Positions 1-26,739 of a stretch of DNA of 64,000 nucleotides are shown here, piece by piece. Source of the DNA: Eledone cirrhosa (lineage: Eukaryota); NCBI GenBank assembly GCA_964016885.1, contig OZ024753.1, positions 22,382,001-22,446,000 of the forward strand, given 5' to 3'. The notes below the pieces were generated by a model. The model ran no database searches, had not been told where the DNA came from, and worked only from the letters and a program-made list of their open reading frames with translations. Position 1 is the first letter of the stretch, and every line of letters begins with the position of its first letter. The translations under genes and the position numbers were made by a program.

Positions 1-3000
1 TGACCAGCAGTCACCCATATCCGAGGTTCAAATCCGGGGCAGGTTGTATTTGTGACCAACAGTCACCCATATCCGAAGCCCAAGTCCGGGGAAGGTTGTA
101 TTTGTGACCAGCAGTCACCCATATCCGAGGCCCAAGGCCGGGGAAGGTTGTATTTGCGACCAGCAGTCACCCATATCCGAGGCCCAAGTCCGGGGAAGGT
201 TGTATTTGTGACCAGCAGTCACCCATATCCGAGGCCCAAGTCCGGGGAAGGTTGTATTTGTGACCAGCAGTCACCCATATCCGAGGCCCAAGTCCGGGGA
301 AGGTTGTATTCGTGACCAGCAGTCACCCATATCCGAGGTTCAAGTCCAGGGAAGGTTGTATTTGTGACCAGCAGTCACCCATATCCGAGGTTCAAGTCCG
401 GGGAAGGTTGTATTTGTGACCAGCAGTCACCCATATCCGAGGCCCAAGTCCGGGGAAGGTTGTATTTGTGACCAGCAGTCACGCATATCCGAGGCCCAAG
501 TCCGGGGAAGGTTGTATTTGTGACCAGCAGTCACCCATATCCGAGGCCCAAGTCCGGGGAAGGTTGTATTTGTGACCAGCAGTCACCCATATCCGAGGTT
601 CAAGTCCGGGGAAGGTTGTATTTGTGACCAGCAGTCACCCATATCCGAGATTCAAGTCCGGGGAAGGTTGTATTTGTGACCTGCAGTCACCCATATCCGA
701 GGTTCAAGTCCGGGGAAGGTTGTATTTGTGACCAGCAGTCACCCATATCCGAGGCCCAAGGCCGGGAAGGTTGTATTTGTGACCAGCAGTCACCCATATC
801 CGAGATTCAAGTCTGGGGAAGGTTGTATTTGTGACCAGCAGTCACCCATATCCGAGGTTCAAGTCCAGGGAAGGTTGTATTTGTGACCAGCAGTCACCCA
901 TATCCGAGGTTCAAGTCCGGGGAAGGTTGTATTTGTGACCAGCAGTCACCCATATCCGAGATTCAAGTCCGGGGAAGGTTGTATTTGTGACCAGCAGTCA
1001 CCCATATCCGAGGTTCAAGTCCGGGGAAGGTTGTATTTGTGACCAGCAGTCACCTATATCCGAGGCCCAAGGCCGGGAAGGTTGTATTTGTGACCAGCAG
1101 TCACCCATACCCGAGATTCAAGTCCGGGGAAGGTTGTATTTGTGACCAGCAGTCACCCATATCCGAGGTTCAAGTCCAGGGAAGGTTGTATTTGTGACCA
1201 GCAGTCACCCATATCAGAGGCCCAAGTCCGGGGAAGGTTGTATTTGTGACCAGCAGTCACCCATATCCGAGGCCCAAGTCCGGGGAAGGTTGTATTTGTG
1301 ACCAGCAGTCACCCATATCCGAGGTTCAAGTCCGGGGAAGGTTGTATTTGTGACCAGCAGTCACCCATATCCGAAGCCCAAGGCCGGGAAGGTTGTATTT
1401 GTTACCAGCAGTCACCCATATCCGAGATTCAAGTCCGGCGAAGGTTGTATTTGTGACCAGCAGTCACCCATATCCGAGGCCCAAGGCCGGGAAGGTTGTA
1501 TTTGTGACCAGCAGTCACCCATATCAGAGATTCAAGTCCGGGGAAGGTTGTATTTGTGACCAGCAGTCACCCATATCCGAGGTTCAAGTCCAGGGAAGGT
1601 TGTATTTGTGACCAGCAGTCACCCATATCCGAGATTCAAGTCCAGGGAAGGTTGTATTTGTGACCAGCAGTCACCCATATCCGAGGTTCAAGTCCGGGGA
1701 AGGTTGTATTTGTGACCAGCAGTCACCCATATCCGAAGCCCAAGTCCGGGGATGTTGTATTTGTGACCAGCAGTCACCCATATCCGAGGTTCAAGTCCAG
1801 GGAAGGTTGTATTTGTGACCAGCAGTCACCCATATCCGAGGCCCAAGGCCGGGAAGGTTGTATTTGTGACCAGCAGTCCCCCATATTCGAGATTCAAGTC
1901 TGGGGAAGGTTGTATTTGTGACCAGCAGTCACCCATATCCGAAATTCAAGTCCAGGGAAGGTTGTATTTGTGACCAGCAGTCACCCATATCCGAGGCCCA
2001 AGTCTGGGGAAGGTTGTATTTGTGACCTGCAGTCACCCATATCCGAGGCCCAAGTCCGGGGAAGGTTGTATTTGTGACCAGCAGTCACCCATATCCGAGG
2101 TTCAAGTCCGGGGCAGGTTGTATTTGTGACCAGCAGTCACCCATATCCGAAGCCCAAGTCCGGGGAAGGTTGTATTTGTGACCAGCAGTCACCCATATCC
2201 GAGGCCCAAGGCCGGGGAAGGTTGTATTTGTGACCAGCAGTCACCCATATCCGAGGCCCAAGTCCGGGGAAGGTTGTATTTGTGACCAGCAGTCACCCAT
2301 ATCCGAGGCCCAAGTCCGGGGAAGGTTGTATTTGTGACCAGCAGTCACCCATATCCGAGGCCCAAGTCCGGGGAAGGTTGTATTTGTGACCAGCAGTCAC
2401 CCATATCCGAGGTTCAAGTCCAGGGAAGGTTGTATTTGTGACCAGCAGTCACCCATATCCGAGGTTCAAGTCAGGGGAAGGTTGTATTTGTGACCAGCAG
2501 TCACCCATATCCGAGGCCCAAGTCCGGGGAAGGTTGTATTTGTGACCAGCAGTCACGCATATCCGAGGCCCAGTCCGGGGAAGGTTGTATTTGTGACCAT
2601 CAGTCACCCATATCCGAGGCCCAAGTCCGGGGAAGGTTGTATTTGTGACCAGCAGTCACCCATATCCGAGGTTCAAGTCCGGGGAAGGTTGTATTTGTGA
2701 CCAGCAGTCACCCATATCCGAGATTCAAGTCCGGGGAAGGTTGTATTTGTGACCTGCAGTCACCCATATCCGAGGTTCAAGTCCGGGGAAGGTTGTATTT
2801 GTGACCAGCAGTCACCCATATCCGAGGCCCAAGGCCGGGAAGGTTGTATTTGTGACTAGCAGTCACCCATATCCGAGATTCAAGTCTGGGGAAGGTTGTA
2901 TTTGTGACCAGCAGTCACCCATATCCGAGGTTCAAGTCCAGGGAAGGTTGTATTTGTGACCAGCAGTCACCCATATCCGAGGTTCAAGTCCGGGGAAGGT

Positions 3001-6000
3001 TGTATTTGTGACCAGCAGTCACCCATATCCGAGATTCAAGTCCGGGGAAGGTTGTATTTGTGACCAGCAGTCACCCATATCCGAGGTTCAAGTCCGGGGA
3101 AGGTTGTATTTGTGACCAGCAGTCACCCATATCCGAGGACCAAGGCCGGGAAGGTTGTATTTGTGACCAGCAGTCACCCATATCCGAGATTCAAGTCCGG
3201 GGAAGGTTGTATTTGTGACCAGCAGTCACCCATATCCGAGGTTCAAGTCCAGGGAAGGTTGTATTTGTGACCAGCAGTCACCCATATCCGAGGCCCAAGT
3301 TCGGGGCAGGTTGTATTTGTGACCAGCAGTCACCCATATCCGAGGCCCAAGTCCGGGGAAGGTTGTATTTGTGACCAGCAGTCACCTATATCCGAGGTTC
3401 AAGTCCGGGGAAGGTTGTATTTGTGACCAGCAGTCACCCATATCCGAGGCCCAAGGCCGGGGAAGGTTGTATTTGTGACCAGCAGTCACCCATATCCGAG
3501 GCCCAAGTCCGGGGAAGGTTGTATTTGTGACCAGCAGTCACCCATATCCGAGGCCCAAGTCCGGGGAAGGTTGTATTTGTGACCAGCAGTCACCCATATC
3601 CGAGGCCCAAGTCCGGGGAAGGTTGTATTTGTGACCAGCAGTCACCCATATCCGAGATTCAAGTCCGGGGAAGGTTGTATTTGTGACCAGCAGTCACCCA
3701 TATCCGAGGTTCAAGTCCGGGGAATCTTGTATTTGTGACCAGCAGTCACCCATATCCGAGGCCCAAGTCCGGGGAAGGTTGTATTTGTGACCAGCAGTCA
3801 CCCATATCCGAGGTTCAAGTCCGGGGCAGGTTGTATTTGTGACCAGCAGTCACCCATATCCGAAGCCCAAGTCCGGGGAAGGTTGTATTTGTGACCAGCC
3901 CTCACCCATATCCGAGGCCCAAGGCCGGGGAAGGTTGTATTTGTGACCAGCCGTCACCCATATCCGAGGCCCAAGTCCGGGGAAGGTTGTATTTGTGACC
4001 AGCAGTCACCCATATCCGAGGTTCAAGTCCGGGGAAGGTGGTATTTGTGACCAGCAGTCACCCATATCTGAGGCCCAAGTCCGGGGAAGGTTGTATTTGT
4101 GACCAGCAGTCACCCATATCCGAGGTTCAAGTCCAGGGAAGGTTGTATTTGTGACCAGCAGTCACCCATATCCGAGGTTCAAGTCCGGGGAAGGTTGTAT
4201 TTGTGACCAGCAGTCACCCATATCCGAGGCCCAAGTCCGGGGAAGGTTGTATTTGTGACCAGCAGTCACGCATATCCGAGGCCCAAGTCCGGGGAAGGTT
4301 GTATTTGTGACCAGCAGTCACCCATATCCGAGGCCCAAGTCCGGGGAAGGTTGTATTTGTGACCAGCAGTCACCCATATCCGAGGTTCAAGTCCGGGGAA
4401 GGTTGTATTTTTGACCAGCAGTCACCCATATCCGAGATTCAAGTCCGGGGAAGGTTGTATTTGTGACCTGCAGTCACCCATATCCGAGGTTCAAGTCCGG
4501 GGAAGGTTGTATTTGTGACCAGCAGTCACCCATATCCGAGGCCCAAGGCCGGGAAGGTTGTATTTGTGACCAGCAGTCACCCATATCCGAGATTCAAGTC
4601 TGGGGAAGGTTGTATTTGTGACCAGCAGTCACCCATATCCGAGGTTCAAGTCCAGGGAAGGTTGTATTTGTGACCAGCAGTCACCCATATCCGAGGTTCA
4701 AGTCCGGGGAAGGTTGTATTTGTGACCAGCAGTCACCCACATCCGAGATTCAAGTCCGGGGAAGGTTGTATTTGTGACCAGCAGTCACCCATATCCGAGG
4801 TTCAAGTCCGGGGAAGGTTGTATTTGTGACCAGCAGTCACCCATATCCGAGGCCCAAGGCCGGGAAGGTTGTATTTGTGACCAGCAGTCACCCATATCAG
4901 AGATTCAAGTCCGGGGAAGGTTGTATTTGTGACCAGCAGTCACCCATATCCGAGGTTCAAGTCCAGGGAAGGTTGTATTTGTGACCAGCAGTCACCCATA
5001 TCAGAGGCCCAAGTCCGGGGAAGGTTGAATTTGTGACCAGCAGTCACCCATATCCGAGGCCCAAGTCCGGGGAAGGTTGCATTTGTGACCAGCAGTCACC
5101 CATATCCGAGGTTCAAGTCCGGGGAAGGTTGTATTTGTGACCAGCAATCACCCATATCCGAGGCCCAAGGCCGGGAAGGTTGTATTTGTTACCAGCAGTC
5201 ACCCATATCCGAGGTTCAAGTCCGGGGAAGGTTGTATTTGTGACCAGCAGTCACCCATATCCGAGGCCCAAGGCCGGGAAGGTTGTATTTGTGACCAGCA
5301 GTCACCCATATCCGAGGCCCAAGGCCGGGAAGGTTGTATTTGTGACCAGCAGTCACCCATATCAGAGATTCAAGTCCGGGGAAGGTTGTATTTGTGACCA
5401 GCAGTCACCCATATCCGAGGTTCAAGTCCAGGGAAGGTTGTATTTGTTACCAGCAGTCACCCATATCCGAGGTTCAAGTCCGGGGAATCTTGTATTTGTG
5501 ACCAGCAGTCACCCATATCCGAGGCCCAAGTCCGGGGAAGGTTGTATTTGTGACCAGCAGTCACCCATATCCGAGGTTCAAGTCCGGGGCAGGTTGTATT
5601 TGTGACCAGCAGTCACCCATATCCGAAGCCCAAGTCCGGGGAAGGTTGTATTTGTGACCAGCCGTCACCCATATCCGAGGCCCAAGGCCGGGGAAGGTTG
5701 TATTTGTGACCAGCAGTCACCCATATCCGAGGCCCAAGTCCGGGGAAGGTTGTATTTGTGACCAGCATTCACCTATATCCGAGGCCCAAGTCCGGGGAAG
5801 GTTGTATTTGTGACCAGCAGTCACCCATATCTGAGGCCCAAGTCCGGGGAAGGTTGTATTTGTGACCAGCAGTCACCCATATCCGAGGTTCAAGTCCAGG
5901 GAAGGTTGTATTTGTGACCAGCAGTCACACATATCCGAGGTTCAAGTCCGGGGAAGGTTGTATTTGTGACCAGCAGTCACCCATATCCGAGGCCCAAGTC

Positions 6001-9000
6001 CGGGGAAGGTTGTATTTGTGACCAGCAGTCACGCATATCCGAGGCCCAAGTCCGGGGAAGGTTGTATTTGTGACCAGCAGTCACCCATATCCGAGGCCCA
6101 AGTCCGGGGAAGGTTGTATTTGTGACCAGCAGTCACCCATATCCGAGGTTCAAGTCCGGGGAAGGTTGTATTTGTGACCAGCAGTCACCCATATCCGAGA
6201 TTCAAGTTCGGGGAAGGTTGTATTTGTGACCTGCAGTCACCCATATCCGAGGTTCAAGTCCGGGGAAGGTTGTATTTGTGACCAGCAGTCACCCATATCC
6301 GAGGCCCAAGGCCGGGAAGGTTGTATTTGTGACCAGCAGTCACCCATATCCGAGATTCAAGTCTGGGGAAGGTTGTATTTGTGACCAGCAGTCACCCATA
6401 TCCGAGGCCCAAGGCCGGGAAGGTTGTATTTGTTACCAGCAGTCACCCATATCCGAGGTTCAAGTCCGGGGAAGGTTGTATTTGTGACCAGCAGTCAACC
6501 ATATCCGAGGCCCAAGGCCGGGAAGGTTGTATTTGTGACCAGCAGTCACCCATATCCGAGGCCCAAGGCCGGGAAGGTTGTATTTGTGACCAGCAGTCAC
6601 TCATATCAGAGATTCAAGTCCGGGGAAGGTTGTATTTGTGACCAGCAGTCACCCATATCCGAGATTCAAGTCCAGGGAAGGTTGTATTTGTGACCAGCAG
6701 TCACCCATATCCGAGGTTCAAGTCCGGGGAAGGTTGTATTTGTGACCAGCAGTCACCCATATCCGAAGCCCAAGTCCGGGGATGTTGTATTTGTGACCAG
6801 CAGTCACCCATATCCGAGGTTCAAGTCCAGGGAAGGTTGTATATGTGACCAGCAGTCACCCATATCCGAGGCCCAAGGCCGGGAAGGTTGTATTTGTGAC
6901 CAGCAGTCACCCATATCCGAGATTCAAGTCTGGGGAAGGTTGTATTTGTGACCAGCAGTCACCCATATCCGAGGTTCAAGTCCAGGGAAGGTTGTATTTG
7001 TGACCAGTAGTCACCCATTTCCGAGGCCCAAGTCTGGGGAAGGTTGTATTTGTGACCTGCAGTCACCCATATCCGAGGCCCAAGTCCGGGGAAGGTTGTA
7101 TTTGTGACCAGCAGTCACCCATATCCGAGGTTCAAGTCCGGGGCAGGTTGTATTTGTGACCAGCAGTCACCCATATCCGAAGCCCAAGTCCGGGGAAGGT
7201 TGTATTTGTGACCAGCAGTCACCCATATCCGAGGCCCAAGGCCGGGGAAGGTTGTATTTGTGACCAGCAGTCACCCATATCCGAGGCCAAAGTCCGGGGA
7301 AGGTTGTATTTGTGACCAGCAGTCACCCATATCCGAGGCCCAAGTCCGGGGAAGGTTGTATTTGTGACCAGCAGTCACCTATATCCGAGGTTCAAGTCCA
7401 GAGAAGGTTGTATTTGTGACCAGCAGTCACCCATATCCGAGGTTCAAGTCCGGGGAAGGTTGTATTTGTGACCAGCAGTCACCCATATCCGAGGCCCAAG
7501 TCCGGGGAAGGTTGTATTTGTGACCAGCAGTCACGCATATCCGAGGCCCAAGTCCGGGGAAGGTTGTATTTGTGACCAGCAGTCACCCATATCCGAGGCC
7601 CAAGTCCGGGGAAGGTTGTATTTGTGACCAGCAGTCACCCATATCCGAGGTTCAAGTCCGGGGAAGGTTGTATTTGTGACCAGCAGTCACCCATATCCGA
7701 GGCCAACGTCTGGGGAAGGTTGTATTTGTGACCAGCAGTCACCCATATCCGAGGTTCAAGTCCAGGGAAGGTTGTATTTGTGACCAGCAGTCACCCATAT
7801 CCGAGGTTCAAGTCCGGGGAAGGTTGTATTTGTGACCAGCAGTCACCCATATCCGAGATTCAAGTCCGGGGAAGGTTGTATTTGTGACCAGCAGTCACCC
7901 ATATCCGAGGTTCAAGTCCGGGGAATGTTGTATTTGTGACCAGCAGTCACCCATATCCGAAATTCAAGTCCAGGGAAGGTTGTATTTGTGACCAGCAGTC
8001 ACCCATATCCGAGGCCCAAGTCTGGGGAAGGTTGTATTTGTGACCAGCAGTCACCCATATCCGAGGCCCAAGTCTGGGGAAGGTTGTATTTGTGACCAGC
8101 AGTCACCCATATCCGAAGCCCAAGTCCGGGGAAGGTTGTATTTGTGACCAGCAGTCACCCATATCCGAGGCCCAAGGCCGGGGAAGGTTGTATTTGTGAC
8201 CAGCAGTCACCCATATCCGAGGCCCAAGTCCGGGGAAGGTTGTATTTGTGACCAGCAGTCACCCATATCCGAGGCCCAAGTCCGGGGAAGGTTGTATTTG
8301 TGACCAGCAGTCACCCATATCCGAGGCCCAAGTCCGGGGAAGGTTGTATTTGTGACCAGCAGTCACCCATATCCGAGGTTCAAGTCCAGGGAAGGTTGTA
8401 TTTGTGACCAGCAGTCACCCATATCCGAGGTTCAAGTCCGGGGAAGGTTGTATTTGTGACCAGCAGTCACCCATATCCGAGGCCCAAGTCCGGGGAAGGT
8501 TGTATTTGTGACCAGCAGTCACGCATATCCGAGGCCCAAGTCCGGGGAAGGTTGTATTTGTGACCAGCAGTCACCCATATCCGAGGCCCAAGTCCGGGGA
8601 AGGTTGTATTTGTGACCAGCAGTCACCCATATCCGAGGTTCAAGTCCGGGGAAGGTTGTATTTGTGACCAGCAGTCACCCATATCCGAGATTCAAGTCCG
8701 GGGAAGGTTGTATTTGTGACCTGCAGTCACCCATATCCGAGGTTCAAGTCCGGGGAAGGTTGTATTTGTGACCAGCAGTCACCCATATCCGAGGCCCAAG
8801 GCCGGGAAGGTTGTATTTGTGACCAGCAGTCACCCATATCCGAGATTCAAGTCTGGGGAAGGTTGTATTTGTGACCAGCAGTCACCCATATCCGAGGTTC
8901 AAGTCCAGGGAAGGTTGTATTTGTGACCAGCAGTCACCCATATCCGAGGTTCAAGTCCGGGGAAGGTTGTATTTGTGACCAGCAGTCACCCATATCCGAG

Positions 9001-12000
9001 ATTCAAGTCCGGGGAAGGTTGTATTTGTGACCAGCAGTCACCCATATCCGAGGTTCAAGTCCGGGGAAGGTTGTATTTGTGACCAGCAGTCACCCATATC
9101 CGAGGACCAAGGCCGGGAAGGTTGTATTTGTGACCAGCAGTCACCCATATCCGAGATTCAAGTCCGGGGAAGGTTGTATTTGTGACCAGCAGTCACCCAT
9201 ATCCGAGGTTCAAGTCCAGGGAAGGTTGTATTTGTGACCAGCAGTCACCCATATCCGAGGCCCAAGTCCGGGGCAGGTTGTATTTGTGACCAGCAGTCAC
9301 CCATATCCGAGGCCCAAGTCCGGGGAAGGTTGTATTTGTGACCAGCAGTCACCTATATCCGAGGTTCAAGTCCGGGGAAGGTTGTATTTGTGACCAGCAG
9401 TCACCCATATCCGAGGCCCAAGGCCGGGGAAGGTTGTATTTGTGACCAGCAGTCACCCATATCCGAGGCCCAAGTCCGGGGAAGGTTGTATTTGTGACCA
9501 GCAGTCACCCATATCCGAGGCCCAAGTCCGGGGAAGGTTGTATTTGTGACCAGCAGTCACCCATATCCGAGGCCCAAGTCCGGGGAAGGTTGTATTTGTG
9601 ACCAGCAGTCACCCATATCCGAGATTCAAGTCCGGGGAAGGTTGTATTTGTGACCAGCAGTCACCCATATCCGAGGTTCAAGTCCGGGGAATCTTGTATT
9701 TGTGACCAGCAGTCACCCATATCCGAGGCCCAAGTCCGGGGAAGGTTGTATTTGTGACCAGCAGTCACCCATATCCGAGGTTCAAGTCCGGGGCAGGTTG
9801 TATTTGTGACCAGCAGTCACCCATATCCGAAGCCCAAGTCCGGGGAAGGTTGTATTTGTGACCAGCCGTCACCCATATCCGAGGCCCAAGGCCGGGGAAG
9901 GTTGTATTTGTGACCAGCAGTCACCCATATCCGAGGCCCAAGTCCGGGGAAGGTTGTATTTGTGACCAGCAGTCACCCATATCCGAGGCCCAAGTCCGGG
10001 GAAGGTTGTATTTGTGACCAGCAGTCACCCATATCTGAGGCCCAAGTCCGGGGAAGGTTGTATTTGTGACCAGCAGTCACCCATATCCGAGGTTCAAGTC
10101 CAGGGAAGGTTGTATTTGTGACCAGCAGTCACCCATATCCGAGGTTCAAGTCCGGGGAAGGTTGTATTTGTGACCAGCAGTCACCCATATCCGAGGCCCA
10201 AGTCCGGGGAAGGTTGTATTTGTGACCAGCAGTCACGCATATCCGAGGCCCAAGTCCGGGGAAGGTTGTATTTGTGACCAGCAGTCACCCATATCCGAGG
10301 CCCAAGTCCGGGGAAGGTTGTATTTGTGACCAGCAGTCACCCATATCCGAGGTTCAAGTCCGGGGAAGGTTGTATTTTTGACCAGCAGTCACCCATATCC
10401 GAGATTCAAGTCCGGGGAAGGTTGTATTTGTGACCTGCAGTCACCCATATCCGAGGTTTAAGTCCGGGGAAGGTTGTATTTGTGACCAGCAGTCACCCAT
10501 ATCCGAGGCCCAAGGCCGGGAAGGTTGTATTTGTGACCAGCAGTCACCCCTATCCGAGATTCAAGTCTGGGGAAGGTTGTATTTGTGACCAGCAGTCACC
10601 CATATCCGAGGTTCAAGGCCAGGGAAGGTTGTATTTGTGACCAGCAGTCACCCATATCCGAGGTTCAAGTCCGGGGAAGGTTGTATTTGTGACCAGCAGT
10701 CACCCACATCCGAGATTCAAGTCCGGGGAAGGTTGTATTTGTGACCAGCAGTCACCCATATCCGAGGTTCAAGTCCGGGGAAGGTTGTATTTGTGACCAG
10801 CAGTCACCCATATCCGAGGCCCAAGGCCGGGAAGGTTGTATTTGTGACCAGCAGTCACCCATATCAGAGATTCAAGTCCGGGGAAGGTTGTATTTGTGAC
10901 CAGCAGTCACCCATATCCGAGGTTCAAGTCCAGGGAAGGTTGTATTTGTGACCAGCAGTCACCCATATCAGAGGCCCAAGTCCGGGGAAGGTTGAATTTG
11001 TGACCAGCAGTCACCCATATCCGAGGCCCAAGTCCGGGGAAGGTTGCATTTGTGACCAGCAGTCACCCATATCCGAGGTTCAAGTCCGGGGAAGGTTGTA
11101 TTTGTGACCAGCAATCACCCATATCCGAGGCCCAAGGCCGGGAAGGTTGTATTTGTTACCAGCAGTCACCCATATCCGAGGTTCAAGTCCGGGGAAGGTT
11201 GTATTTGTGACCAGCAGTCACCCATATCCGAGGCCCAAGGCCGGGAAGGTTGTATTTGTGACCAGCAGTCACCCATATCCGAGGCCCAAGGCCGGGAAGG
11301 TTGTATTTGTGACCAGCAGTCACCCATATCAGAGATTCAAGTCCGGGGAAGGTTGTATTTGTGACCAGCAGTCACCCATATCCGAGGTTCAAGTCCAGGG
11401 AAGGTTGTATTTGTTACCAGCAGTCACCCATATCCGAGGTTCAAGTCCGGGGAATCTTGTATTTGTGACCAGCAGTCACCCATATCCGAGGCCCAAGTCC
11501 GGGGAAGGTTGTATTTGTGACCAGCAGTCACCCATATCCGAGGTTCAAGTCCGGGGCAGGTTGTATTTGTGACCAGCAGTCACCCATATCCGAAGCCCAA
11601 GTCCGGGGAAGGTTGTATTTGTGACCAGCCGTCACCCATATCCGAGGCCCAAGGCCGGGGAAGGTTGTATTTGTGACCAGCAGTCACCCATATCCGAGGC
11701 CCAAGTCCGGGGAAGGTTGTATTTGTGACCAGCATTCACCCATATCCGAGGCCCAAGTCCGGGGAAGGTTGTATTTGTGACCAGCAGTCACCCATATCTG
11801 AGGCCCAAGTCCGGGGAAGGTTGTATTTGTGACCAGCAGTCACCCATATCCGAGGTTCAAGTCCAGGGAAGGTTGTATTTGTGACCAGCAGTCACACATA
11901 TCCGAGGTTCAAGTCCGGGGAAGGTTGTATTTGTGACCAGCAGTCACCCATATCCGAGGCCCAAGTCCGGGGAAGGTTGTATTTGTGACCAGCAGTCACG

Positions 12001-15000
12001 CATATCCGAGGCCCAAGTCCGGGGAAGGTTGTATTTGTGACCAGCAGTCACCCATATCCGAGGCCCAAGTCCGGGGAAGGTTGTATTTGTGACCAGCAGT
12101 CACCCATATCCGAGGTTCAAGTCCGGGGAAGGTTGTATTTGTGACCAGCAGTCACCCATATCCGAGATTCAAGTTCGGGGAAGGTTGTATTTGTGACCTG
12201 CAGTCACCCATATCCGAGGTTCAAGTCCGGGGAAGGTTGTATTTGTGACCAGCAGTCACCCATATCCGAGGCCCAAGGCCGGGAAGGTTTTATTTGTGAC
12301 CAGCAGTCACCCATATCCGAGATTCAAGTCTGGGGAAGGTTGTATTTGTGACCAGCAGTCACCCATATCCGAGGCCCAAGGCCGGGAAGGTTGTATTTGT
12401 TACCAGCAGTCACCCATATCCGAGGTTCAAGTCCGGGGAAGGTTGTATTTGTGACCAGCAGTCAACCATATCCGAGGCCCAAGGCCGGGAAGGTTGTATT
12501 TGTGACCAGCAGTCACCCATATCCGAGGCCCAAGGCCGGGAAGGTTGTATTTGTGACCAGCAGTCACTCATATCAGAGATTCAAGTCCGGGGAAGGTTGT
12601 ATTTGTGACCAGCAGTCACCCATATCCGAGGTTCAAGTCCAGGGAAGGTTGTATTTGTGACCAGCAGTCACCCATATCCGAGATTCAAGTCCAGGGAAGG
12701 TTGTATTTGTGACCAGCAGTCACCCATATCCGAGTTTCAAGTCCGGGGAAGGTTGTATTTGTGACCAGCAGTCACCCATATCCGAAGCCCAAGTCCGGGG
12801 ATGTTGTATTTGTGACCAGCAGTCACCCATATCCGAGGTTCAAGTCCAGGGAAGGTTGTATATGTGACCAGCAGTCACCCATATCCGAGGCCCAAGGCCG
12901 GGAAGGTTGTATTTGTGACCAGCAGTCACCCATATCCGAGATTCAAGTCTGGGGAAGGTTGTATTTGTGACCAGCAGTCACCATATCCGAGGTTCAAGTC
13001 CAGGGAAGGTTGTATTTGTGACCAGTAGTCACCCATTTCCGAGGCCCAAGTCTGGGGAAGGTTGTATTTGTGACCTGCAGTCACCCATATCCGAGGCCCA
13101 AGTCCGGGGAAGGTTGTATTTGTGACCAGCAGTCACCCATATCCGAGGTTCAAGTCCGGGGCAGGTTGTATTTGTGACCAGCAGTCACCCATATCCGAAG
13201 CCCAAGTCCGGGGAAGGTTGTATTTGTGACCAGCAGTCACCCATATCCGAGGCCCAAGGCCGGGGAAGGTTGTATTTGTGACCAGCAGTCACCCATATCC
13301 GAGGCCCAAGTCCGGGGAAGGTTGTATTTGTGACCAGCAGTCACCCATATCCGAGGCCAAAGTCCGGGGAAGGTTGTATTTGTGACCAGCAGTCACCCAT
13401 ATCCGAGGCCCAAGTCCGGGGAAGGTTGTATTTGTGACCAGCAGTCACCCATATCCGAGGTTCAAGTCCAGAGAAGGTTGTATTTGTGACCAGCAGTCAC
13501 CCATATCCGAGGTTCAAGTCCGGGGAAGGTTGTATTTGTGACCAGCAGTCACCCATATCCGAGGCCCAAGTCCGGGGAAGGTTGTATTTGTGACCAGCAG
13601 TCACGCATATCCGAGGCCCAAGTCCGGGGAAGGTTGTATTTGTGACCAGCAGTCACCCATATCCGAGGCCCAAGTCCGGGGAAGGTTGTATTTGTGACCA
13701 GCAGTCACCCATATCCGAGGTTCAAGTCCGGGGAAGGTTGTATTTGTGACCAGCAGTCACCCATATCCGAGGCCAAAGTCTGGGGAAGGTTGTATTTGTG
13801 ACCAGCAGTCACCCATATCCGAGGTTCAAGTCCAGGGAAGGTTGTATTTGTGACCAGCAGTCACCCATATCCGAGGTTCAAGTCCGGGGAAGGTTGTATT
13901 TGTGACCAGCAGTCACCCATATCCGAGATTCAAGTCCGGGGAAGGTTGTATTTGTGACCAGCAGTCACCCATATCCGAGGTTCAAGTCCGGGGAATGTTG
14001 TATTTGTGACCAGCAGTCACCCATATCCGAGGCCCAAGTCCGGGGAAGGTTGTATTTGTGACCAGCAGTCACCCATATCCGAGGTTCAAGTCCGGGGCAG
14101 GTTGTATTTGTGACCAGCAGTCACCCATATCCGAAGCCCAAGTCCGGGGAAGGTTGTATTTGTGACCAGCAGTCACCCATATCCGAGGCCCAAGGCCGGG
14201 GAAGGTTGTATTTGTGACCAGCAGTCACCCATATCCGAGGCCCAAGTCCGGGGAAGGTTGTATTTGTGACCAGCAGTCACCCATATCCGAGGCCCAAGTC
14301 CGGGGAAGGTTGTATTTGTGACCAGCAGTCACCCATATCCGAGGCCCAAGTCCGGGGAAGGTTGTATTTGTGACCAGCAGTCACCCATATCCGAGGTTCA
14401 AGTCCAGGGAAGGTTGTATTTGTGACCAGCAGTCACCCATATCCGAGGTTCAAGTCCGGGGAAGGTTGTATTTGTGACCAGCAGTCACCCATATCCGAGG
14501 CCCAAGTCCGGGGAAGGTTGTATTTGTGACCAGCAGTCACGCATATCCGAGGCCCAAGTCCGGTGAAGGTTGTATTTGTGACCAGCAGTCACCCATATCC
14601 GAGGCCCAAGTCCGGGGAAGGTTGTATTTGTGACCAGCAGTCACCCATATCCGAGGTTCAAGTCCGGGGAAGGTTGTATTTGTGACCAGCAGTCACCCAT
14701 ATCCGAGATTCAAGTCCGGGGAAGGTTGTATTTGTGACCTGCAGTCACCCATATCCGAGGTTCAAGTCCGGGGAAGGTTGTATTTGTGACCAGCAGTCAC
14801 CCATATCCGAGGCCCAAGGCCGGGAAGGTTGTATTTTTGACCAGCAGTCACCCATATCCGAGATTCAAGTCTGGGGAAGGTTGTATTTGTGACCAGCAGT
14901 CACCCATATCCGAGGTTCAAGTCCGGGGAAGGTTGTATTTGTGACCAGCAGTCACCCATATCCGAGGCCCAAGGCCGGGAAGGTTGTATTTGTGACCAGC

Positions 15001-18000
15001 AGTCACCCATATCCGAGATTCAAGTCCGGGGAAGGTTGTATTTGTGACCAGCAGTCACCCATATCCGAGGTTCAAGTCCAGGGAAGGTTGTATTTGTGAC
15101 CAGCAGTCACCCATATCAGAGGCCCAAGTCCGGGGAAGGTTGTATTTGTGACCAGCAGTCACCCATATCCGAGGCCCAAGTCCGGGGAAGGTTGTATTTG
15201 TGACCAGCAGTCACCCATATCCGAGGTTCAAGTCCGGGGAAGGTTGTATTTGTGACCAGCAGTCACCCATATCCGAGGCCCAAGGCCGGGAAGGTTGTAT
15301 TTGTTACCAGCAGTCACCCATATCCGAGATTCAAGTCCGGGGAAGGTTGTATTTGTGACCAGCAGTCACCCATATCCGAGGCCCAAGGTCGGGAAGGTTG
15401 TATTTGTGACCAGCAGTCACCCATATCAGAGATTCAAGTCCGGGGAAGGTTGTATTTGTGACCAGCAGTCACCCATATCCGAGGTTCAAGTCCGGGGTAG
15501 GTTGTATTTGTGACCAGCAGTCACCCATATCCGAACCCCAAGGCCGGGAAGGTTGTATTTGTGACCAGCTGTCACCCATATCCGAGATTCAAGTCCGGGG
15601 AAGGTTGTATTTGTGACCAGCAGTCACCCATATCCGAGGTTCAAGTCCAGGGAAGGTTGTATTTGTGACCAGCAGTCACCCATATCCGAGGCCCAAGTCC
15701 GGGGAAGGTTGTATTTGTGACCAGCAGTCACCCATATCCGAGGCCCAAGTCCGGGGAAGGTTGCATTTGTGACCAGCAGTCACCCATATCCGAGGTTCAA
15801 GTCCGGGGAAGGTTGTATTTGTGACCAGCAGTCACCCATATCCGAGGCCCAAGGCCGGGAAGGTTGTATTTGTTACCAGCAGTCACCCATATCCGAGGTT
15901 CAAGTCCGGGGAAGGTTGTATTTGTGACCAGCAGTCACCCATATCCGAGGTTCAAGTCCAGGGAAGGTTGTATTTGTGACCAGCAGTCACCCATATCCGA
16001 AGCCCAAGTCCGGGGAAGGTTGTATTTGTGACCAGCCGTCACCCATATCCGAGGCCCAAGGCCGGGGAAGGTTGTATTTGTGACCAGCAGTCACCCATAT
16101 CCGAGGCCCAAGTCCGGGGAAGGTTGTATTTGTGACCAGCAGTCACCCATATCCGAGGCCCAAGTCCGGGGAAGGTTGTATTTGTGACCAGCAGTCACCC
16201 ATATCTGAGGCCCAAGTCCGGGGAAGGTTGTATTTGTGACCAGCAGTCACCCATATCCGAGGTTCAAGTCCAGGGAAGGTTGTATTTGTGACCAGCAGTC
16301 ACCCATATCCGAGGTTCAAGTCCGGGGAAGGTTGTATTTGTGACCAGCAGTCACCCATATCCGAGGCCCAAGGCCGGGAAGGTTGTATTTGTGACCAGCA
16401 GTCACCCATATCCGAGGCCCAAGGCCGGGAAGGTTGTATTTGTGACCAGCAGTCACCCATATCAGAGATTCAAGTCCGGGGAAGGTTGTATTTGTGACCA
16501 GCAGTCACCCATATCCGAGGTTCAAGTCCAGGGAAGGTTGTATTTGTGACCAGCAGTCACCCATATCCGAGATTCAAGTCCGGGGAAGGTTGTATTTGTG
16601 ACCAGCAGTCACCCATATCCGAGGCCCAAGGCCGGGAAGGTTGCATTTGTGACCAGCAGTCACCCATATCAGAGATTCAAGTCCGGGGAAGGTTGTATTT
16701 GTGACCAGCAGTCACCCATATCCGAGATTCAAGTCTGGGGAAGGTTGTATTTGTGACCAGCAGTCACCCATATCCGAGGTTCAAGTCCAGGGAAGGTTGT
16801 ATTTGTGACCAGCAGTCACCCATATCCGAGGTTCAAGTCCGGGGAAGGTTGTATTTGTGACCATCAGTCACCCACATCCGAGATTCAAGTCCGGGGAAGG
16901 TTGTATTTGTGACCAGCAGTCACCCATATCCGAGGTTCAAGTCCGGGGAAGGTTGTATTTGTGACCAGCAGTCACCCATATCCGAGGCCCAAGGCCGGGA
17001 AGGTTGTATTTGTGACCAGCAGTCACCCATATCAGAGATTCAAGTCCGGGGAAGGTTGTATTTGTGACCAGCAGTCACCCATATCCGAGGTTCAAGTCCA
17101 GGGAAGGTTGTATTTGTGACCAGCAGTCACCCATATCCGAGGTTCAAGTCCGGGGAATGTTGTATTTGTGACCAGCAGTCACCCATATCCGAGGCCCAAG
17201 TCCGGGGAAGGTTTTATTTGTGACCAGCAGTCACCCATATCCGAGGTTCAAGTCCGGGGCAGGTTGTATTTGTGACCAGCAGTCACCCATATCCGAAGCC
17301 CAAGTCCGGGGAAGGTTGTATTTGTGACCAGCAGTCACCCATATCCGAGGCCCAAGGCCGGGGAAGGTTGTATTTGTGACCAGCAGTCACCCATATCCGA
17401 GGCCCAAGTCCGGGGAAGGTTGTATTTGTGACCAGCAGTCACCCATATCCGAGGCCCAAGTCCGGGGAAGGTTGTATTTGTGACCAGCAGTCACCCATAT
17501 CCGAGGCCCAAGTCCGGGGAAGGTTGTATTTGTGACCAGCAGTCACCCATATCCGAGGTTCAAGTCCAGGGAAGGTTGTATTTGTGACCAGCAGTCACCC
17601 ATATCCGAGGTTCAAGTCCGGGGAAGGTTGTATTTGTGACCAGCAGTCACCCATATCCGAGGCCCAAGTCCGGGGAAGGTTGTATTTGTGACCAGCAGTC
17701 ACGCATATCCGAGGCCCAAGTCCGGTGAAGGTTGTATTTGTGACCAGCAGTCACCCATATCCGAGGCCCAAGTCCGGGGAAGGTTGTATTTGTGACCAGC
17801 AGTCACCCATATCCGAGGTTCAAGTCCGGGGAAGGTTGTATTTGTGACCAGCAGTCACCCATATCCGAGGCCCAAGTCCGGGGAAGGTTGTATTTGTGAC
17901 CAGCAGTCACCCATATCCGAGATTCAAGTCCGGGGAAGGTTGTATTTGTGACCTGCAGTCACCCATATCCGAGGTTCAAGTCCGGGGAAGGTTGTATTTG

Positions 18001-21000
18001 TGACCAGCAGTCACCCATATCCGAGGCCCAAGGCCGGGAAGGTTGTATTTGTGACCAGCAGTCACCCATATCCGAGATTCAAGTCTGGGGAAGGTTGTAT
18101 TTGTGACCAGCAGTCACGCATATCCGAGGCCCAAGTCCGGTGAAGGTTGTATTTGTGACCAGCAGTCACCCATATCCGAGGCCCAAGTCCGGGGAAGGTT
18201 GTATTTGTGACCAGCAGTCACCCATATCCGAGGTTCAAGTCCGGGGAAGGTTGTATTTGTGACCAGCAGTCACCCATATCCGAGATTCAAGTCCGGGGAA
18301 GGTTGTATTTGTGACCTGCAGTCACCCATATCCGAGGTTCAAGTCCGGGGAAGGTTGTATTTGTGACCAGCAGTCACCCATATCCGAGGCCCAAGGCCGG
18401 GAAGGTTGTATTTGTGACCAGCAGTCACCCATATCCGAGATTCAAGTCTGGGGAAGGTTGTATTTGTGACCAGCAGTCACCCATATCCGAGGTTCAAGTC
18501 CAGGGAAGGTTGTATTTGTGACCAGCAGTCACCCATATCCGAGGCCCAAGGCCGGGAAGGTTGTATTTGTGACCAGCAGTCACCCATATCCGAGATTCAA
18601 GTCCGGGGAAGGTTGTATTTGTGACCAGCAGTCACCCATATCCGAGGTTCAAGTCCAGGGAAGGTTGTATTTGTGACCAGCAGTCACCCATATCAGAGGC
18701 CCAAGTCCGGGGAAGGTTGTATTTGTGACCAGCAGTCACCCATATCCGAGGCCCAAGTCCGGGGAAGGTTGTATTTGTGACCAGCAGTCACCCATATCCG
18801 AGGTTCAAGTCCGGGGAAGGTTGTATTTGTGACCAGCAGTCACCCATATCCGAGGCCCAAGGCCGGGAAGGTTGTATTTGTTACCAGCAGTCACCCATAT
18901 CCGAGATTCAAGTCCGGGGAAGGTTGTATTTGTGACCAGCAGTCACCCATATCCGAGGCCCAAGGTCGGGAAGGTTGTATTTGTGACCAGCAGTCACCCA
19001 TATCAGAGATTCAAGTCCGGGGAAGGTTGTATTTGTGACCAGCAGTCACCCATATCCGAGGTTCAAGTCCGGGGTAGGTTGTATTTGTGACCAGCAGTCA
19101 CCCATATCCGAAGCCCAAGGCCGGGAAGGTTGTATTTGTGACCAGCTGTCACCCATATCCGAGATTCAAGTCCGGGGAAGGTTGTATTTGTGACCAGCAG
19201 TCACCCATATCCGAGGTTCAAGTCCAGGGAAGGTTGTATTTGTGACCAGCAGTCACCCATATCCGAGGCCCAAGTCCGGGGAAGGTTGCATTTGTGACCA
19301 GCAGTCACCCATATCCGAGGTTCAAGTCCGGGGAAGGTTGTATTTGTGACCAGCAGTCACCCATATCCGAGGCCCAAGGCCGGGAAGGTTGTATTTGTTA
19401 CCAGCAGTCACCCATATCCGAGGTTCAAGTCCGGGGAAGGTTGTATTTGTGACCAGCAGTCACCCATATCCGAGGCCCAAGGCCGGGAAGGTTGTATTTG
19501 TGACCAGCAGTCACCCATATCCGAGGCCCAAGGCCGGGAAGGTTGTATTTGTGACCAGCAGTCACCCATATCAGAGATTCAAGTCCGGGGAAGGTTGTAT
19601 TTGTGACCAGCAGTCACCCATATCCGAGGTTCAAGTCCAGGGAAGGTTGTATTTGTGACCAGCAGTCACCCATATCCGAGGTTCAAGTCCGGGGAATCTT
19701 GTATTTGTGACCAGCAGTCACCCATATCCGAGGCCCAAGGCCGGGGAAGGTTGTATTTGTGACCAGCAGTCACCCATATCAGAGATTCAAGTCCGGGGAA
19801 GGTTGTATTTGTGACCAGCAGTCACCCATATCCGAGGTTCAAGTCCAGGGAAGGTTGTATTTGTGACCAGCAGTCACCCATATCCGAAGCCCAAGTCCGG
19901 GGAAGGTTGTATTTGTGACCAGCCGTCACCCATATCCGAGGCCCAAGGCCGGGGAAGGTTGTATTTGTGACCAGCAGTCACCCATATCCGAGGCCCAAGT
20001 CCGGGGAAGGTTGTATTTGTGACCAGCAGTCACCCATATCCGAGGCCCAAGTCCGGGGAAGGTTGTATTTGTGACCAGCAGTCACCCATATCTGAGGCCC
20101 AAGTCCGGGGAAGGTTGTATTTGTGACCAGCAGTCACCCATATCCGAGGTTCAAGTCCAGGGAAGGTTGTATTTGTGACCAGCAGTCACCCATATCCGAG
20201 GTTCAAGTCCGGGGAAGGTTGTATTTGTGACCAGCAGTCACCCATATCCGAGGCCCAAGGCCGGGAAGGTTGTATTTGTGACCAGCAGTCACCCATATCC
20301 GAGGCCCAAGGCCGGGAAGGTTGTATTTGTGACCAGCAGTCACCCATATCAGAGATTCAAGTCCGGGGAAGGTTGTATTTGTGACCAGCAGTCACCCATA
20401 TCCGAGGTTCAAGTCCAGGGAAGGTTGTATTTGTGACCAGCAGTCACTCATATCCGAGATTCAAGTCCGGGGAAGGTTGTATTTGTGACCAGCAGTCACC
20501 CATATCCGAGGCCCAAGGCCGGGAAGGTTGTATTTGTGACCAGCAGTCACCCATATCAGAGATTCAAGTCCGGGGAAGGTTGTATTTGTGACCAGCAGTC
20601 ACCCATATCCGAGATTCAAGTCTGGGGAAGGTTGTATTTGTGACCAGCAGTCACCCATATCCGAGGTTCAAGTCCAGGGAAGGTTGTATTTGTGACCAGC
20701 AGTCACCCATATCCGAGGTTCAAGTCCGGGGAAGGTTGTATTTGTGACCATCAGTCACCCACATCCGAGATTCAAGTCCGGGGAAGGTTGTATTTGTGAC
20801 CAGCAGTCACCCATATCCGAGGTTCAAGTCCGGGGAAGGTTGTATTTGTGACCAGCAGTCACCCATATCCGAGGCCCAAGGCCGGGAAGGTTGTATTTGT
20901 GACCAGCAGTCACCCATATCAGAGATTCAAGTCCGGGGAAGGTTGTATTTGTGACCAGCAGTCACCCATATCCGAGGTTCAAGTCCAGGGAAGGTTGTAT

Positions 21001-23147
21001 TTGTGACCAGCAGTCACCCATATCCGAGGTTCAAGTCCGGGGAATGTTGTATTTGTGACCAGCAGTCACCCATATCCGAGGCCCAAGTCCGGGGAAGGTT
21101 GTATTTGTGACCAGCAGTCACCCATATCCGAGGTTCAAGTCCGGGGCAGGTTGTATTTGTGACCAGCAGTCACCCATATCCGAAGCCCAAGTCCGGGGAA
21201 GGTTGTATTTGTGACCAGCAGTCACCCATATCCGAGGCCCAAGGCCGGGGAAGGTTGTATTTGTGACCAGCAGTCACCCATATCCGAGGCCCAAGTCCGG
21301 GGAAGGTTGTATTTGTGACCAGCAGTCACCCATATCCGAGGCCCAAGTCCGGGGAAGGTTGTATTTGTGACCAGCAGTCACCCATATCCGAGGCCCAAGT
21401 CCGGGGAAGGTTGTATTTGTGACCAGCAGTCACCCATATCCGAGGTTCAAGTCCAGGGAAGGTTGTATTTGTGACCAGCAGTCACCCATATCCGAGGTTC
21501 AAGTCCGGGGAAGGTTGTATTTGTGACCAGCAGTCACCCATATCCGAGGCCCAAGTCCGGGGAAGGTTGTATTTGTGACCAGCAGTCACGCATATCCGAG
21601 GCCCAAGTCCGGTGAAGGTTGTATTTGTGACCAGCAGTCACCCATATCCGAGGCCCAAGTCCGGGGAAGGTTGTATTTGTGACCAGCAGTCACCCATATC
21701 CGAGGTTCAAGTCCGGGGAAGGTTGTATTTGTGACCAGCAGTCACCCATATCCGAGGCCCAAGTCCGGGGAAGGTTGTATTTGTGACCAGCAGTCACCCA
21801 TATCCGAGATTCAAGTCCGGGGAAGGTTGTATTTGTGACCTGCAGTCACCCATATCCGAGGTTCAAGTCCGGGGAAGGTTGTATTTGTGACCAGCAGTCA
21901 CCCATATCCGAGGCCCAAGGCCGGGAAGGTTGTATTTGTGACCAGCAGTCACCCATATCCGAGATTCAAGTCTGGGGAAGGTTGTATTTGTGACCAGCAG
22001 TCACCCATATCCGAGGTTCAAGTCCAGGGAAGGTTGTATTTGTGACCAGCAGTCACCCATATCCGAGGTTCATGTCCGGGAAGGTTGTATTTGTGACCAG
22101 CAGTCACCCATATCCGAGATTCAAGTCCGGGGAAGGTTGTATTTGTGACCAGCAGTCACCCATATCCGAGGTTCAAGTCCGGGGAAGGTTGTATTTGTGA
22201 CCAGCAGTCACCCATATCCGAGGCCCAAGGCCGGGAAGGTTGTATTTGTGACCAGCAGTCACCCATATCCGAGATTCAAGTCCGGGGAAGGTTGTATTTG
22301 TGACCAGCAGTCACCCATATCCGAGGTTCAAGTCCAGGGAAGGTTGTATTTGTGACCAGCAGTCACCCATATCAGAGGCCCAAGTCCGGGGAAGGTTGTA
22401 TTTGTGACCAGCAGTCACCCATATCCGAGGCCCAAGTCCGGGGAAGGTTGTATTTGTGACCAGCAGTCACCCATATCCGAGGTTCAAGTCCGGGGAAGGT
22501 TGTATTTGTGACCAGCAGTCACCCATATCCGAGGCCCAAGGCCGGGAAGGTTGTATTTGTTACCAGCAGTCACCCATATCCGAGATTCAAGTCCGGGGAA
22601 GGTTGTATTTGTGACCAGCAGTCACCCATATCCGAGGCCCAAGGCCGGGAAGGTTGTATTTGTGACCAGCAGTCACCCATATCAGAGATTCAAGTCCGGG
22701 GAAGGTTGTATTTGTGACCAGCAGTCACCCATATCCGAGGTTCAAGTCCAGGGAAGGTTGTATTTGTGACCAGCAGTCACCCATATCCGAGATTCAAGTC
22801 CAGGGAAGGTTGTATTTGTGACCAGCAGTCACCCATATCCGAGGTTCAAGTCCGGGGAAGGTTGTATTTGTGACCAGCAGTCACCCATATCCGAAGCCCA
22901 AGTCCGGGGATGTTGTATTTGTGACCAGCAGTCACCCATATCCGAGGTTCAAGTCCAGGGAAGATTGTATTTGTGACCAGCAGTCACCCATATCCGAGGC
23001 CCAAGGCCGGGAAGGTTGTATTTGTGACCAGCAGTCACCCATATCCGAGATTCAAGTCTGGGGAAGGTTGTATTTGTGACCAGCAGTCACCCATATCCGA
23101 GGTTCAAGTCCAGGGAAGGTTGTATTTGTGACCAGCAGTCACCCATA
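1..23147. repeat. 52-bp tandem satellite array (~445 monomers, open at window start) with higher-order structure
   Basis: Monomer TGACCAGCAGTCACCCATATCCGAGG(TT/CC)CAAGTCCGGGGAAGGTTGTATTTG repeated head to tail; a 51-bp variant (...CAAGGCCGGGAAGG) is interspersed; identical ORF-track peptides recur at 5967-bp offsets (5137/11104, 6381/12348). Confidence 0.98.
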
Positions 23148-23335
23148 CCAGTCTCTCTACGCCATGTTGTCCAAGGAAAAAGCAATGGCCGATACATCTT
23201 GGCGCCAGTGATGTCGCTATTTCTACAACTGGAGCAACGTGAAATAAAGTGTATAACACAATGCAAGGCCCGGTCTGAGATTCGAACTCACAATCTCACC
23301 ATTATAAGCCCGACTCTCTAACCATGCCATGCATG
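23100..23335 (-). mobile_element. tRNA-derived SINE with CORE-like centre, continuous with the satellite
   Basis: Minus strand reads GCATGGCATGGTTAGAGAGTCGGGC (decayed A box), GAGTTCGAATC (B box, 23279-23289), then ACACTTTATTTCACGTTGCTCCAGT (CORE-like), then passes directly into the satellite monomer. Confidence 0.8.
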
Positions 23336-23455
23336 TATGTATGTATATATATTTATATGTGTGTGTGTCTGTGTATGTGTGTTATGTATATATGTATATA
23401 TATGTGTGTGTGTGTGTCTGTGTATTATGTATATATGTATATAAATATAGATTTG

Positions 23456-26415: not shown

Positions 26416-26468
26416 TATGTATTTTTATACATACCTACGTAGAGAACACTTTCATGTTTCATTGCCAA

Positions 26469-26739
26469 CACACGTAGACAGCTCTATCTACTTCACCTAT
26501 ACACACAGACACGTGGAGCTACATACACGTAGACAGCTCTATCTACTTCACCTATACACACAGACACGTGGAGCTACATACACGTAGACAGCTCTATCTA
26601 CTTCACCTATACACACAGACACGTGGAGCTACATACACGTAGACAGCTCTATCTACTTCACCTATACACACAGACACGTGGAGCTACATACACGTAGACA
26701 GCTCTATCTACTTCACCTATACACACAGACACGTGGAGC
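26469..26739. repeat. 55-bp tandem repeat, ~5 essentially identical copies
   Basis: CACGTAGACAGCTCTATCTACTTCACCTATACACACAGACACGTGGAGCTACATA starts at 26471, 26526, 26581, 26636, 26691. Confidence 0.95.

What the first reader, a model, noticed from the sequence alone, without database searches (positions are those of the whole stretch)
22900..23335. A 23-kb satellite grows directly out of a SINE body
Seen: read on the minus strand, a tRNA-like head and CORE-like domain continue with no linker into ...GGTATGGGTGACTGCTGGTCACAAATACAACCTTCCC..., the first satellite monomer. Inference: the monomer is a 52-bp segment of the SINE's 3' half that amplified in place, so the founder element survives at the array edge. 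A Pol III promoter would then point into the array and could drive satellite transcripts.
Basis: partly seen in the sequence, partly recalled or inferred. Interest (0 to 1): 0.75.

Follow-up and report, generated by a model that had tools for sequence, protein, structure and literature searches.

The report
Giant satellite nested inside one SINE
A 136,000-base block of a 52-base repeat sits inside a single old jumping-element copy whose front and back ends still cap it, so the repeat likely grew in place from one piece of that copy; it is an unusually large and clean new example of a known process, likely in an octopus.

Summary
Confirmed, and larger than reported. The array is 135,687 bp (2,616 monomers), not 23 kb. 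The SINE head is at one edge, and its 3' tail resumes in register at the far edge, outside the window. Head + one monomer + tail aligns to the family consensus at 238 of 261 bases. 27 of 29 dispersed copies hold one monomer-like segment. All 1,986 genome-wide matches to a monomer 26-mer lie in this array. So it very likely grew in place from one decayed tRNA/CORE-type SINE.

The Pol III idea is not supported: the A box is broken and a T5 run lies 30 nt before the first monomer. Transcription is untested.

The kind is known: SINE-derived satellites of squamates (PMC10702118). Here the array is about twice their longest locus, keeps both SINE ends (a minor type there), and is likely in an octopus. 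Smaller arrays of 2-111 copies sit in other copies of this SINE. The giant lies in a satellite-rich zone, so position may decide growth.

Oddity: 885 monomers carry an antisense B box, with no sign of selection. The scan earlier noted LINE-born satellites elsewhere in this genome.

The parts
23262..23332 (-). tRNA-like head of the host SINE copy; begins at consensus position 9; A box damaged, B box intact
   Evidence: Alignment to consensus of 29 dispersed copies. A dispersed copy (L007) gives a weak Rfam tRNA match, 16.3 bits, E 1.8, below the gathering score. ARAGORN finds no tRNA gene in the window.
23322..23329 (-). Remnant of the Pol III A box, 3 nt shorter than consensus
   Evidence: Consensus matches the A-box pattern at position 12; the host does not. 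16 of 29 dispersed copies keep it. The pattern is recalled.
23279..23287 (-). Pol III B box of the SINE, intact
   Evidence: pattern recalled
23220..23261 (-). CORE-like central domain, with 8-nt and 9-nt deletions in this copy
   Evidence: The family consensus matches the published BivaCORE-SINE2 forward primer at 23 of 25 bases, consensus 115-139.
23148..23219 (-). SINE body leading directly into the first monomer
23177..23181 (-). T5 run (T3 in the consensus), a likely Pol III terminator 30 nt before the array
   Evidence: terminator role from general knowledge, not tested
1..23147 (-). 52-bp satellite = SINE consensus positions about 227-284 with copy-specific indels. 446 monomers lie in the window. 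The array continues to G000:C13:22269461 (2,616 monomers, 135,687 bp), where the SINE 3' tail (consensus 286-315, then the terminal motif) resumes outside the window.
23101..23111 (+). Example of the antisense B-box-like 11-mer carried by 885 of 2,616 monomers (150 in the window); no A box on this strand
   Evidence: pattern recalled
23334..23345 (-). Possible left target-site duplication: 12 nt of ACAT-type simple repeat also found just after the far tail
   Evidence: low complexity, so inconclusive

Best explanation
A 135.7-kb array of 2,616 copies of a 52-bp unit lies inside one SINE copy, between that SINE's 5' head and its 3' tail, and likely grew there by DNA-level tandem duplication of one segment of the SINE's 3' half. 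Shown: (1) the unit is homologous to SINE positions about 227-284; (2) head, unit and tail are colinear with the family consensus; (3) the unit occurs at this locus only; (4) rare monomer variants recur in the same order in blocks, and runs of up to 60 identical monomers recur about 43-48 kb apart. Inferred order of events: an old SINE copy inserted and decayed (about 9% substitutions, ten small indels); one 52-bp piece was duplicated; two sub-types (AA and GG at monomer positions 44-45, each about half) split early; unequal exchange or break repair then copied blocks of tens to hundreds of monomers. The satellite-rich setting likely tolerated the growth. It most likely has no dedicated job, and Pol III read-through from the SINE promoter is unlikely.
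For: Far edge continues into the SINE tail. Head + first monomer + tail aligns at 238 of 261 bases over consensus 9-315. Monomer score 74 versus shuffle maximum 37 of 2,000; 27 of 29 dispersed copies carry one such segment, second-best score never above 20. 1,986 exact 26-mer matches genome-wide equal the 1,986 inside the array. Mean pairwise monomer difference 6.1%, 223 distinct monomers. Longest identical run 60 monomers versus 5 in one shuffle that tested every fifth lag. Independent small arrays with other boundaries have SINE sequence in register on both sides in 7 of 15 loci examined (6 by alignment, 1 by eye): 38 bp x111, 68 bp x51, 32 bp x11, 52 bp x4, 28 bp x4, 135 bp x3, 67 bp x2. 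11 of 20 probes over C13 20.0-22.26 Mb are other tandem arrays, versus 17 of 116 control chunks (Fisher p 0.0002, or 0.004 after collapsing probes that look like one array). Monomer loops are very deep in run X1 (up to 5,105 versus 9.85 for the unique head contig).
Against: The pre-expansion allele (this SINE copy with one monomer) was not seen in any run laid, so the order of events is inferred. No perfect microhomology is left at the monomer junction (read), whereas two sister arrays use a 7-nt repeat at consensus 214 and 283. The recombination mechanism cannot be read from one haplotype. No single dominant higher-order period exists (best lag 0.116 identical versus baseline 0.066). 2 of 29 dispersed copies failed the monomer test and several passes are partial. 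8 of 15 sister loci lack one or both SINE sides or had no unit called. The 29 copies are top BLAST hits among 40 scored of 2,744 candidates and built the consensus themselves. The regional probes are few and not independent.
Confidence: 0.93

Rival explanations
1. The SINE's Pol III promoter drives transcription into the array and produces satellite RNA.
For: The B box is intact, the head points into the array, and the array has no T4 run on that strand, so a polymerase that got in would not be stopped.
Against: The A box is broken. A T5 run lies 30 nt upstream of the first monomer. The copy is about 9% diverged, with five gaps in its first 215 consensus positions.
Confidence: 0.08
2. The first duplication arose during retrotransposition (template slippage by reverse transcriptase), and only the later growth was DNA-level.
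For: Several sister copies carry short internal duplications. The junction has no clean microhomology.
Against: The monomers share indels and substitutions not in the consensus, in the same style as the copy-specific decay of the head. This suggests the copy aged as single-copy DNA before duplicating.
Confidence: 0.08
3. The satellite arose elsewhere, or was amplified as a circle, and entered this SINE by homologous recombination.
For: An earlier unchecked note (e1-8673048) reports a satellite-bearing insertion splitting a SINE in this genome. Circle re-integration cannot be excluded as a growth step.
Against: No exact 26-mer copy exists outside the array. Both junctions are in register with no foreign sequence.
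Confidence: 0.04
4. The length or nesting is an assembly artefact.
For: Long arrays are hard to assemble. No laid contig spans the whole junction stretch. Run X1 may be the assembly's own sample.
Against: 223 distinct monomers in ordered blocks, and no N. Monomer contigs are 100-500 times deeper than the unique head contig in X1. Three runs of other studies hold an 82-bp contig, the size expected for a 52-bp loop at k=31.
Confidence: 0.03

Closest known systems
SINE-derived satellites (sSat1-3) of squamate reptiles, Vassetzky, Kosushkin and Ryskov 2023, PMC10702118 (parts 1-4 of 5 read: abstract, results, discussion, start of methods; figures and supplements not seen)
   Same: Tandem unit is a sub-segment of a tRNA-SINE. 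SINE sequence continues at the array edge. Long loci are homogeneous (94% in their 320-mer locus; 94% pairwise here). Locus-specific subvariants alternate. A library of short, heterogeneous loci accompanies them.
   Different: Unit 52 bp versus about 70-290 nt. 2,616 monomers versus up to about 950 (glossy snake) and over 1,200 (fence lizard). Both SINE ends are kept, which that paper calls a minor variant. One locus, not hundreds sharing a unit. Mid-contig (22.3 of 47.3 Mb), not subtelomeric. Likely a mollusc; the authors leave open whether sSats are confined to squamates.
TE-derived minisatellites: Alu-derived human minisatellites, mouse B1-derived VNTR, Ms6-hm and Hm-2 in MaLR LTRs (seen as passages and a table in review PMC9659126; PMC3389668 as search listing only)
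   Same: A short stretch inside a retroelement copy expands in place as a single-locus tandem repeat.
   Different: The units named in that table for mouse B1 and Alu tails are very short; array sizes were not in the passages read. From recall these arrays are far below 136 kb.
CORE-SINE superfamily, octopus OR1/OR2 (PMC4824008 and PMC4758252, passages; one supplement table row of the former)
   Same: tRNA-like head, a central domain matching a CORE-SINE primer at 23 of 25, and at least 62,823 dispersed exact matches to an 18-mer of that domain.
   Different: The two papers disagree on whether OR1 or OR2 is the CORE member.
Tandem SINE arrays in bivalves, PMC11481361 (passages)
   Same: Mollusc SINEs in tandem.
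   Different: Those were counted from hits of at least 150 bp in arrays of 2-15 units, not a 52-bp internal segment amplified thousands of times.

Membership tests
SINE-derived satellite (sSat) | Repeat unit homologous to, and shorter than, a dispersed SINE | tested here: met
   44 of 49 aligned bases to consensus 232-284; score far above 2,000 shuffles
SINE-derived satellite (sSat) | At least four middle monomers, head to tail | tested here: met
   2,616 monomers
SINE-derived satellite (sSat) | Terminal unit extends into SINE sequence up to its end | tested here: met
   Both ends do
SINE-derived satellite (sSat) | Parent is a true dispersed SINE family | tested here: met
   2,744 candidates, 40 scored, on many contigs; 62,823 exact 18-mer matches versus 1 control, some possibly from sister families
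SINE-derived satellite (sSat) | Subtelomeric preference (a tendency in snakes, not part of the definition) | tested here: not met
   Array at 22.27-22.41 Mb of a 47.3-Mb contig
tRNA-derived SINE | tRNA-like head with A and B boxes | tested here: met
   Consensus has both boxes; 16 and 20 of 29 copies keep them (recalled patterns). The Rfam tRNA match is weak, E 1.8. The host copy has lost the A box.
tRNA-derived SINE | Target-site duplication | tested here: inconclusive
   12-nt match on both sides, but simple repeat
tRNA-derived SINE | 3' tail shared with a partner LINE | tested here: inconclusive
   Consensus has no match to LINEs in the 194 kb examined; not searched genome-wide
CORE-SINE superfamily | About 60-65-bp CORE domain after the tRNA head | tested here: inconclusive
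   A 25-nt BivaCORE-SINE2 primer matches at 23 of 25 in the expected place. The full CORE consensus was not available to align; wider resemblance is recalled.
Octopus OR1/OR2 SINE | Sequence identity with the published family consensus | not testable with these tools
   Source papers not held; resemblance recalled only
Centromeric satellite | CENP-A binding; usually present on most chromosomes | not testable with these tools
   No chromatin data. The monomer is confined to one locus, so it is not a shared centromeric repeat.

The most novel reading that the evidence does not exclude
The array, born inside a SINE whose own promoter is broken, has built a new landing pad for the Pol III factor TFIIIC on the opposite strand. 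A two-base change in one of its two founding sub-types created a B box, now present in 885 monomers with no A box, which would make a 136-kb cluster of TFIIIC sites that organises chromatin in a satellite-rich, possibly pericentromeric zone. Shuffled monomers give such a box in 148 of 50,000 trials (1,586 for a looser pattern), but the motif was noticed after the fact, and 32% of that sub-type carries a change that destroys it.
Probability: 0.08. Interest if true: 0.75.

Novelty: new member of a known kind. Interest (0 to 1): 0.45.

Why it matters
Satellite origins are usually guessed because the founder is lost. Here the ancestor, both boundaries and the whole 136-kb array are in hand. Sister copies of the same SINE also show earlier stages (2, 4, 11, 51 and 111 units). 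This gives a series for testing the library model, in particular whether local chromatin setting rather than unit sequence decides which seed grows. It likely extends SINE-derived satellites beyond reptiles to a mollusc, a question the 2023 paper left open, and exceeds their longest locus about two-fold. My paper searches listed no report of SINE-derived satellites in cephalopods; subscription journals and Repbase/Dfam were not searchable. The process itself is known, and no function is shown.

Tried and rejected
Expression: the run search returned 'no RNA holder listed'; this is no evidence either way.

RAD-seq runs X21-X23, with the same species label as X1, gave mostly paralogous SINE reads (18-24 laid each) and do not test the array.

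Runs X4-X6 (organisms B, C, D) each gave one 82-bp monomer contig and no SINE contigs, so trace DNA and shared ancestry cannot be told apart. X7 (organism E) gave SINE pieces and no monomer, which is not proof of absence.

Unusual folding of the monomer as a driver: z = 0.22, -0.69 and -1.00 for three dimers; rejected.

A fixed higher-order repeat: none; only irregular block duplications.

A hotspot in the SINE 3' segment: tandem-anchor searches gave 6 loci for the 3' anchor, 4 for the middle and 6 for the head (3 not fetched, anchor may be shared with other SINEs). There is no clear excess by locus count, although the three longest arrays are all from the 3' segment. These searches need exact 13-mers and periods of 38-68 bp, so they are lower bounds.

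Three tandem hits (L077-L079) had units with no SINE match and were dropped before the count of 15.

Purifying selection on the antisense B box: not seen; non-majority frequency 0.040 inside versus 0.018 outside in the AA class.

A paper search for satellite + B box + TFIIIC + tandem array listed 0 papers. The original CORE-SINE paper was not held. One supplement file of PMC4824008 could not be searched, and the supplements of PMC10702118 were not read; they may bear on the family name and on how rare the two-ended type is.

The organism was not tested directly. 'Likely octopus' rests on recall of the SINE, the 3.0-Gb genome size and earlier AI notes.

Full report
Observation. The minus strand of window 23332-23148 reads as a tRNA-like head, a CORE-like stretch and a SINE body that run straight into the first 52-bp monomer at 23147. 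TRF calls one array at 1-23147, with 446 copies and 93% matches. The window is G000:C13:22382001-22446000 of a 3.0-Gb genome. Fetching the neighbouring DNA showed that the array goes on for another 112 kb: 135,687 bp, 2,616 monomers (2,260 of 52 bp, 349 of 51 bp, 7 others), no N and no interruption.

The parent SINE. The 186 bp before the array found 2,744 candidates, of which 40 were scored and 30 returned as loci, one being the window itself. The other 29 give a 339-bp consensus. An 18-mer of its central domain has 62,823 exact matches versus 1 for the control. The consensus has an A box at 12 and a B box at 57 (recalled patterns). One copy matches Rfam tRNA weakly (16.3 bits, E 1.8). Positions 115-139 match the BivaCORE-SINE2 primer of PMC4824008 at 23 of 25 bases. 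That paper (passages) says the 3' CORE of that family resembles octopus CORE-SINEs. The family is therefore likely a CORE-type tRNA SINE akin to octopus OR1/OR2; the name is recalled and was not tested.

Test 1: is the monomer part of the SINE? Yes. The commonest monomer scores 74 against the consensus, versus mean 20.4, SD 3.1 and maximum 37 in 2,000 shuffles. 27 of 29 dispersed copies have a segment scoring above the best of 200 shuffles each, and none has a second such segment. The two failures are L016, whose segment lies further on behind its own internal repeat (L121), and L027, which has a deletion there. Several passes are partial.

Test 2: the far edge. After the last monomer the sequence continues into the SINE 3' tail and its terminal motif. 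Head + first monomer + tail aligns to consensus 9-315 at 238 of 261 bases with ten small gaps. A 12-nt simple-repeat match on both flanks may be a target-site duplication but is inconclusive.

Test 3: one locus? A 26-mer of the monomer has 1,986 exact matches in the genome, and 1,986 are inside this array. So no donor array with this exact word exists elsewhere in the assembly.

How it grew (inferred). The host head is 90.5% identical to consensus with five gaps; the dispersed copies are 87-96% with 0-4 gaps, biased upward because they built the consensus. The monomers share indels absent from the consensus, so the copy likely aged before duplicating. Monomers differ by 6.1% pairwise, 223 are distinct and 91 occur once. 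Two sub-types, AA and GG at positions 44-45 (1,333 and 1,261), stay near half and half along the array, which suggests an early split. Rare variants recur in the same order in about 8-11 blocks. Runs of 60, 55 and 52 identical monomers recur at lags of 818-852 monomers, versus a longest run of 5 in one shuffle at every fifth lag. There is no dominant period. This fits unequal exchange or break repair copying large blocks; the mechanism itself is not shown. Folding of monomer dimers is unremarkable.

Is it real DNA? In run X1, monomer contigs have depths of about 940-5,100 versus 9.85 for the exact unique head contig. This is an order-of-magnitude check only, and X1 may be the assembly's own sample. 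Three runs of other studies each hold one 82-bp monomer contig, the length of a 52-bp loop at k=31, but no SINE contigs, so they may be trace DNA. No laid contig spans the whole junction stretch.

Not an isolated event. Tandem-anchor searches found other arrays made from pieces of this SINE. Of 15 loci examined, 7 have SINE sequence in register on both sides (C9 38 bp x111, C18 68 bp x51, C6 32 bp x11, C6 52 bp x4, C17 28 bp x4 by eye, C24 135 bp x3, C11 67 bp x2). Four keep one side, two keep neither, one lies beside an inverted SINE piece, and one had no unit called. Units and junctions differ, so these are independent births. Three further hits were dropped as not SINE-derived, and three head-anchor hits were not fetched. 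The giant sits in a satellite-rich zone: 11 of 20 probes over 20.0-22.26 Mb are other tandem arrays, versus 17 of 116 control chunks. The rest of the window is LINE-like ORFs and simple repeats (LINE labels recalled). Position, more than sequence, is my preferred reason for its size; this is inference from few probes.

Pol III idea. The B box at 23287-23279 is intact, but the A box is 3 nt short and fails the pattern that 16 of 29 dispersed copies meet. A T5 run at 23181-23177 lies 30 nt before the array; runs of four or more T end Pol III transcripts (general knowledge). No RNA run could be laid. I put read-through at about 8%.

An oddity. On the plus strand 885 monomers read a B box, made by the AA sub-type; there is no A box. 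Shuffles give this in 148 of 50,000 (strict) or 1,586 (loose). It was noticed after the fact, and 32% of AA monomers carry a change that breaks it, so selection is not indicated. It is the novel case, at 8%.

Comparison. Vassetzky et al. 2023 (PMC10702118, parts 1-4 of 5 read) describe the same kind in squamates: units of about 70-290 nt, loci up to about 950 and over 1,200 monomers, usually one SINE end kept, two ends as a minor variant, and a subtelomeric bias. They leave open whether it occurs outside squamates. TE-derived minisatellites are reviewed in PMC9659126 (passages). Bivalve tandem SINEs are arrays of 2-15 units (PMC11481361, passages). PMC12054243 (passages) cites only reptiles as described cases. 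Searches listed no cephalopod case. Earlier AI notes report LINE-born satellites elsewhere in this genome; look-ups by sequence and nearby place were empty.

Verdict. The observation and the origin are right, the size was under-read, and the promoter idea is weak. It is a new member of a known kind, notable for its size, its complete nesting and its series of smaller siblings. Interest 0.45.

Noticed in passing
window 1-23147 (+ strand) and the rest of the array: 885 of 2,616 monomers carry a B-box-like 11-mer antisense to the SINE, created by the AA sub-type; no A box; no sign of selection.
   Followed up: partly
L110 983-5201 (G000:C9 about 41.9995-42.0037 Mb): 38-bp x111 array from the same SINE segment, with SINE body upstream (weak match) and the full tail downstream.
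   Followed up: yes
G000:C18:15618698-15622163 (L113, L122): 68-bp x51 array inside a near-complete SINE; its junction uses a 7-nt direct repeat of the consensus, as does the 67-bp duplication at C11 (L111).
   Followed up: yes
L076 717-1345 (G000:C2 about 19.552 Mb): 15-bp x34 array from the same SINE motif, abutting an inverted SINE 3' half back to back.
   Followed up: partly
L002, L016/L121, L117: SINE copies in which a middle segment is repeated together with a TA microsatellite that arose inside the element.
   Followed up: partly
L042, L046-L048, L050-L052, L055-L057, L059 (G000:C13 20.5-22.24 Mb): Many unrelated tandem arrays, including a 28-bp repeat seen at 21.90, 21.95 and 22.00 Mb and an 18-bp array over 12 kb; the zone may be pericentromeric.
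   Followed up: partly
window 49592-52804 (+), 53324-55471 (-), 55739-58804 (-): Long open frames (1,070, 715 and 1,021 aa) that look like non-LTR retrotransposon polyproteins (label recalled, no family search run).
   Followed up: no
window 24690-26422 and 26470-26739: 17-bp x101 array and a perfect 55-bp x4.9 repeat right beside the SINE head.
   Followed up: no
window 23044-23147 in runs X4-X6: Three runs labelled as other organisms hold the monomer as an 82-bp contig but no SINE contigs; trace DNA or a shared array, unresolved.
   Followed up: partly
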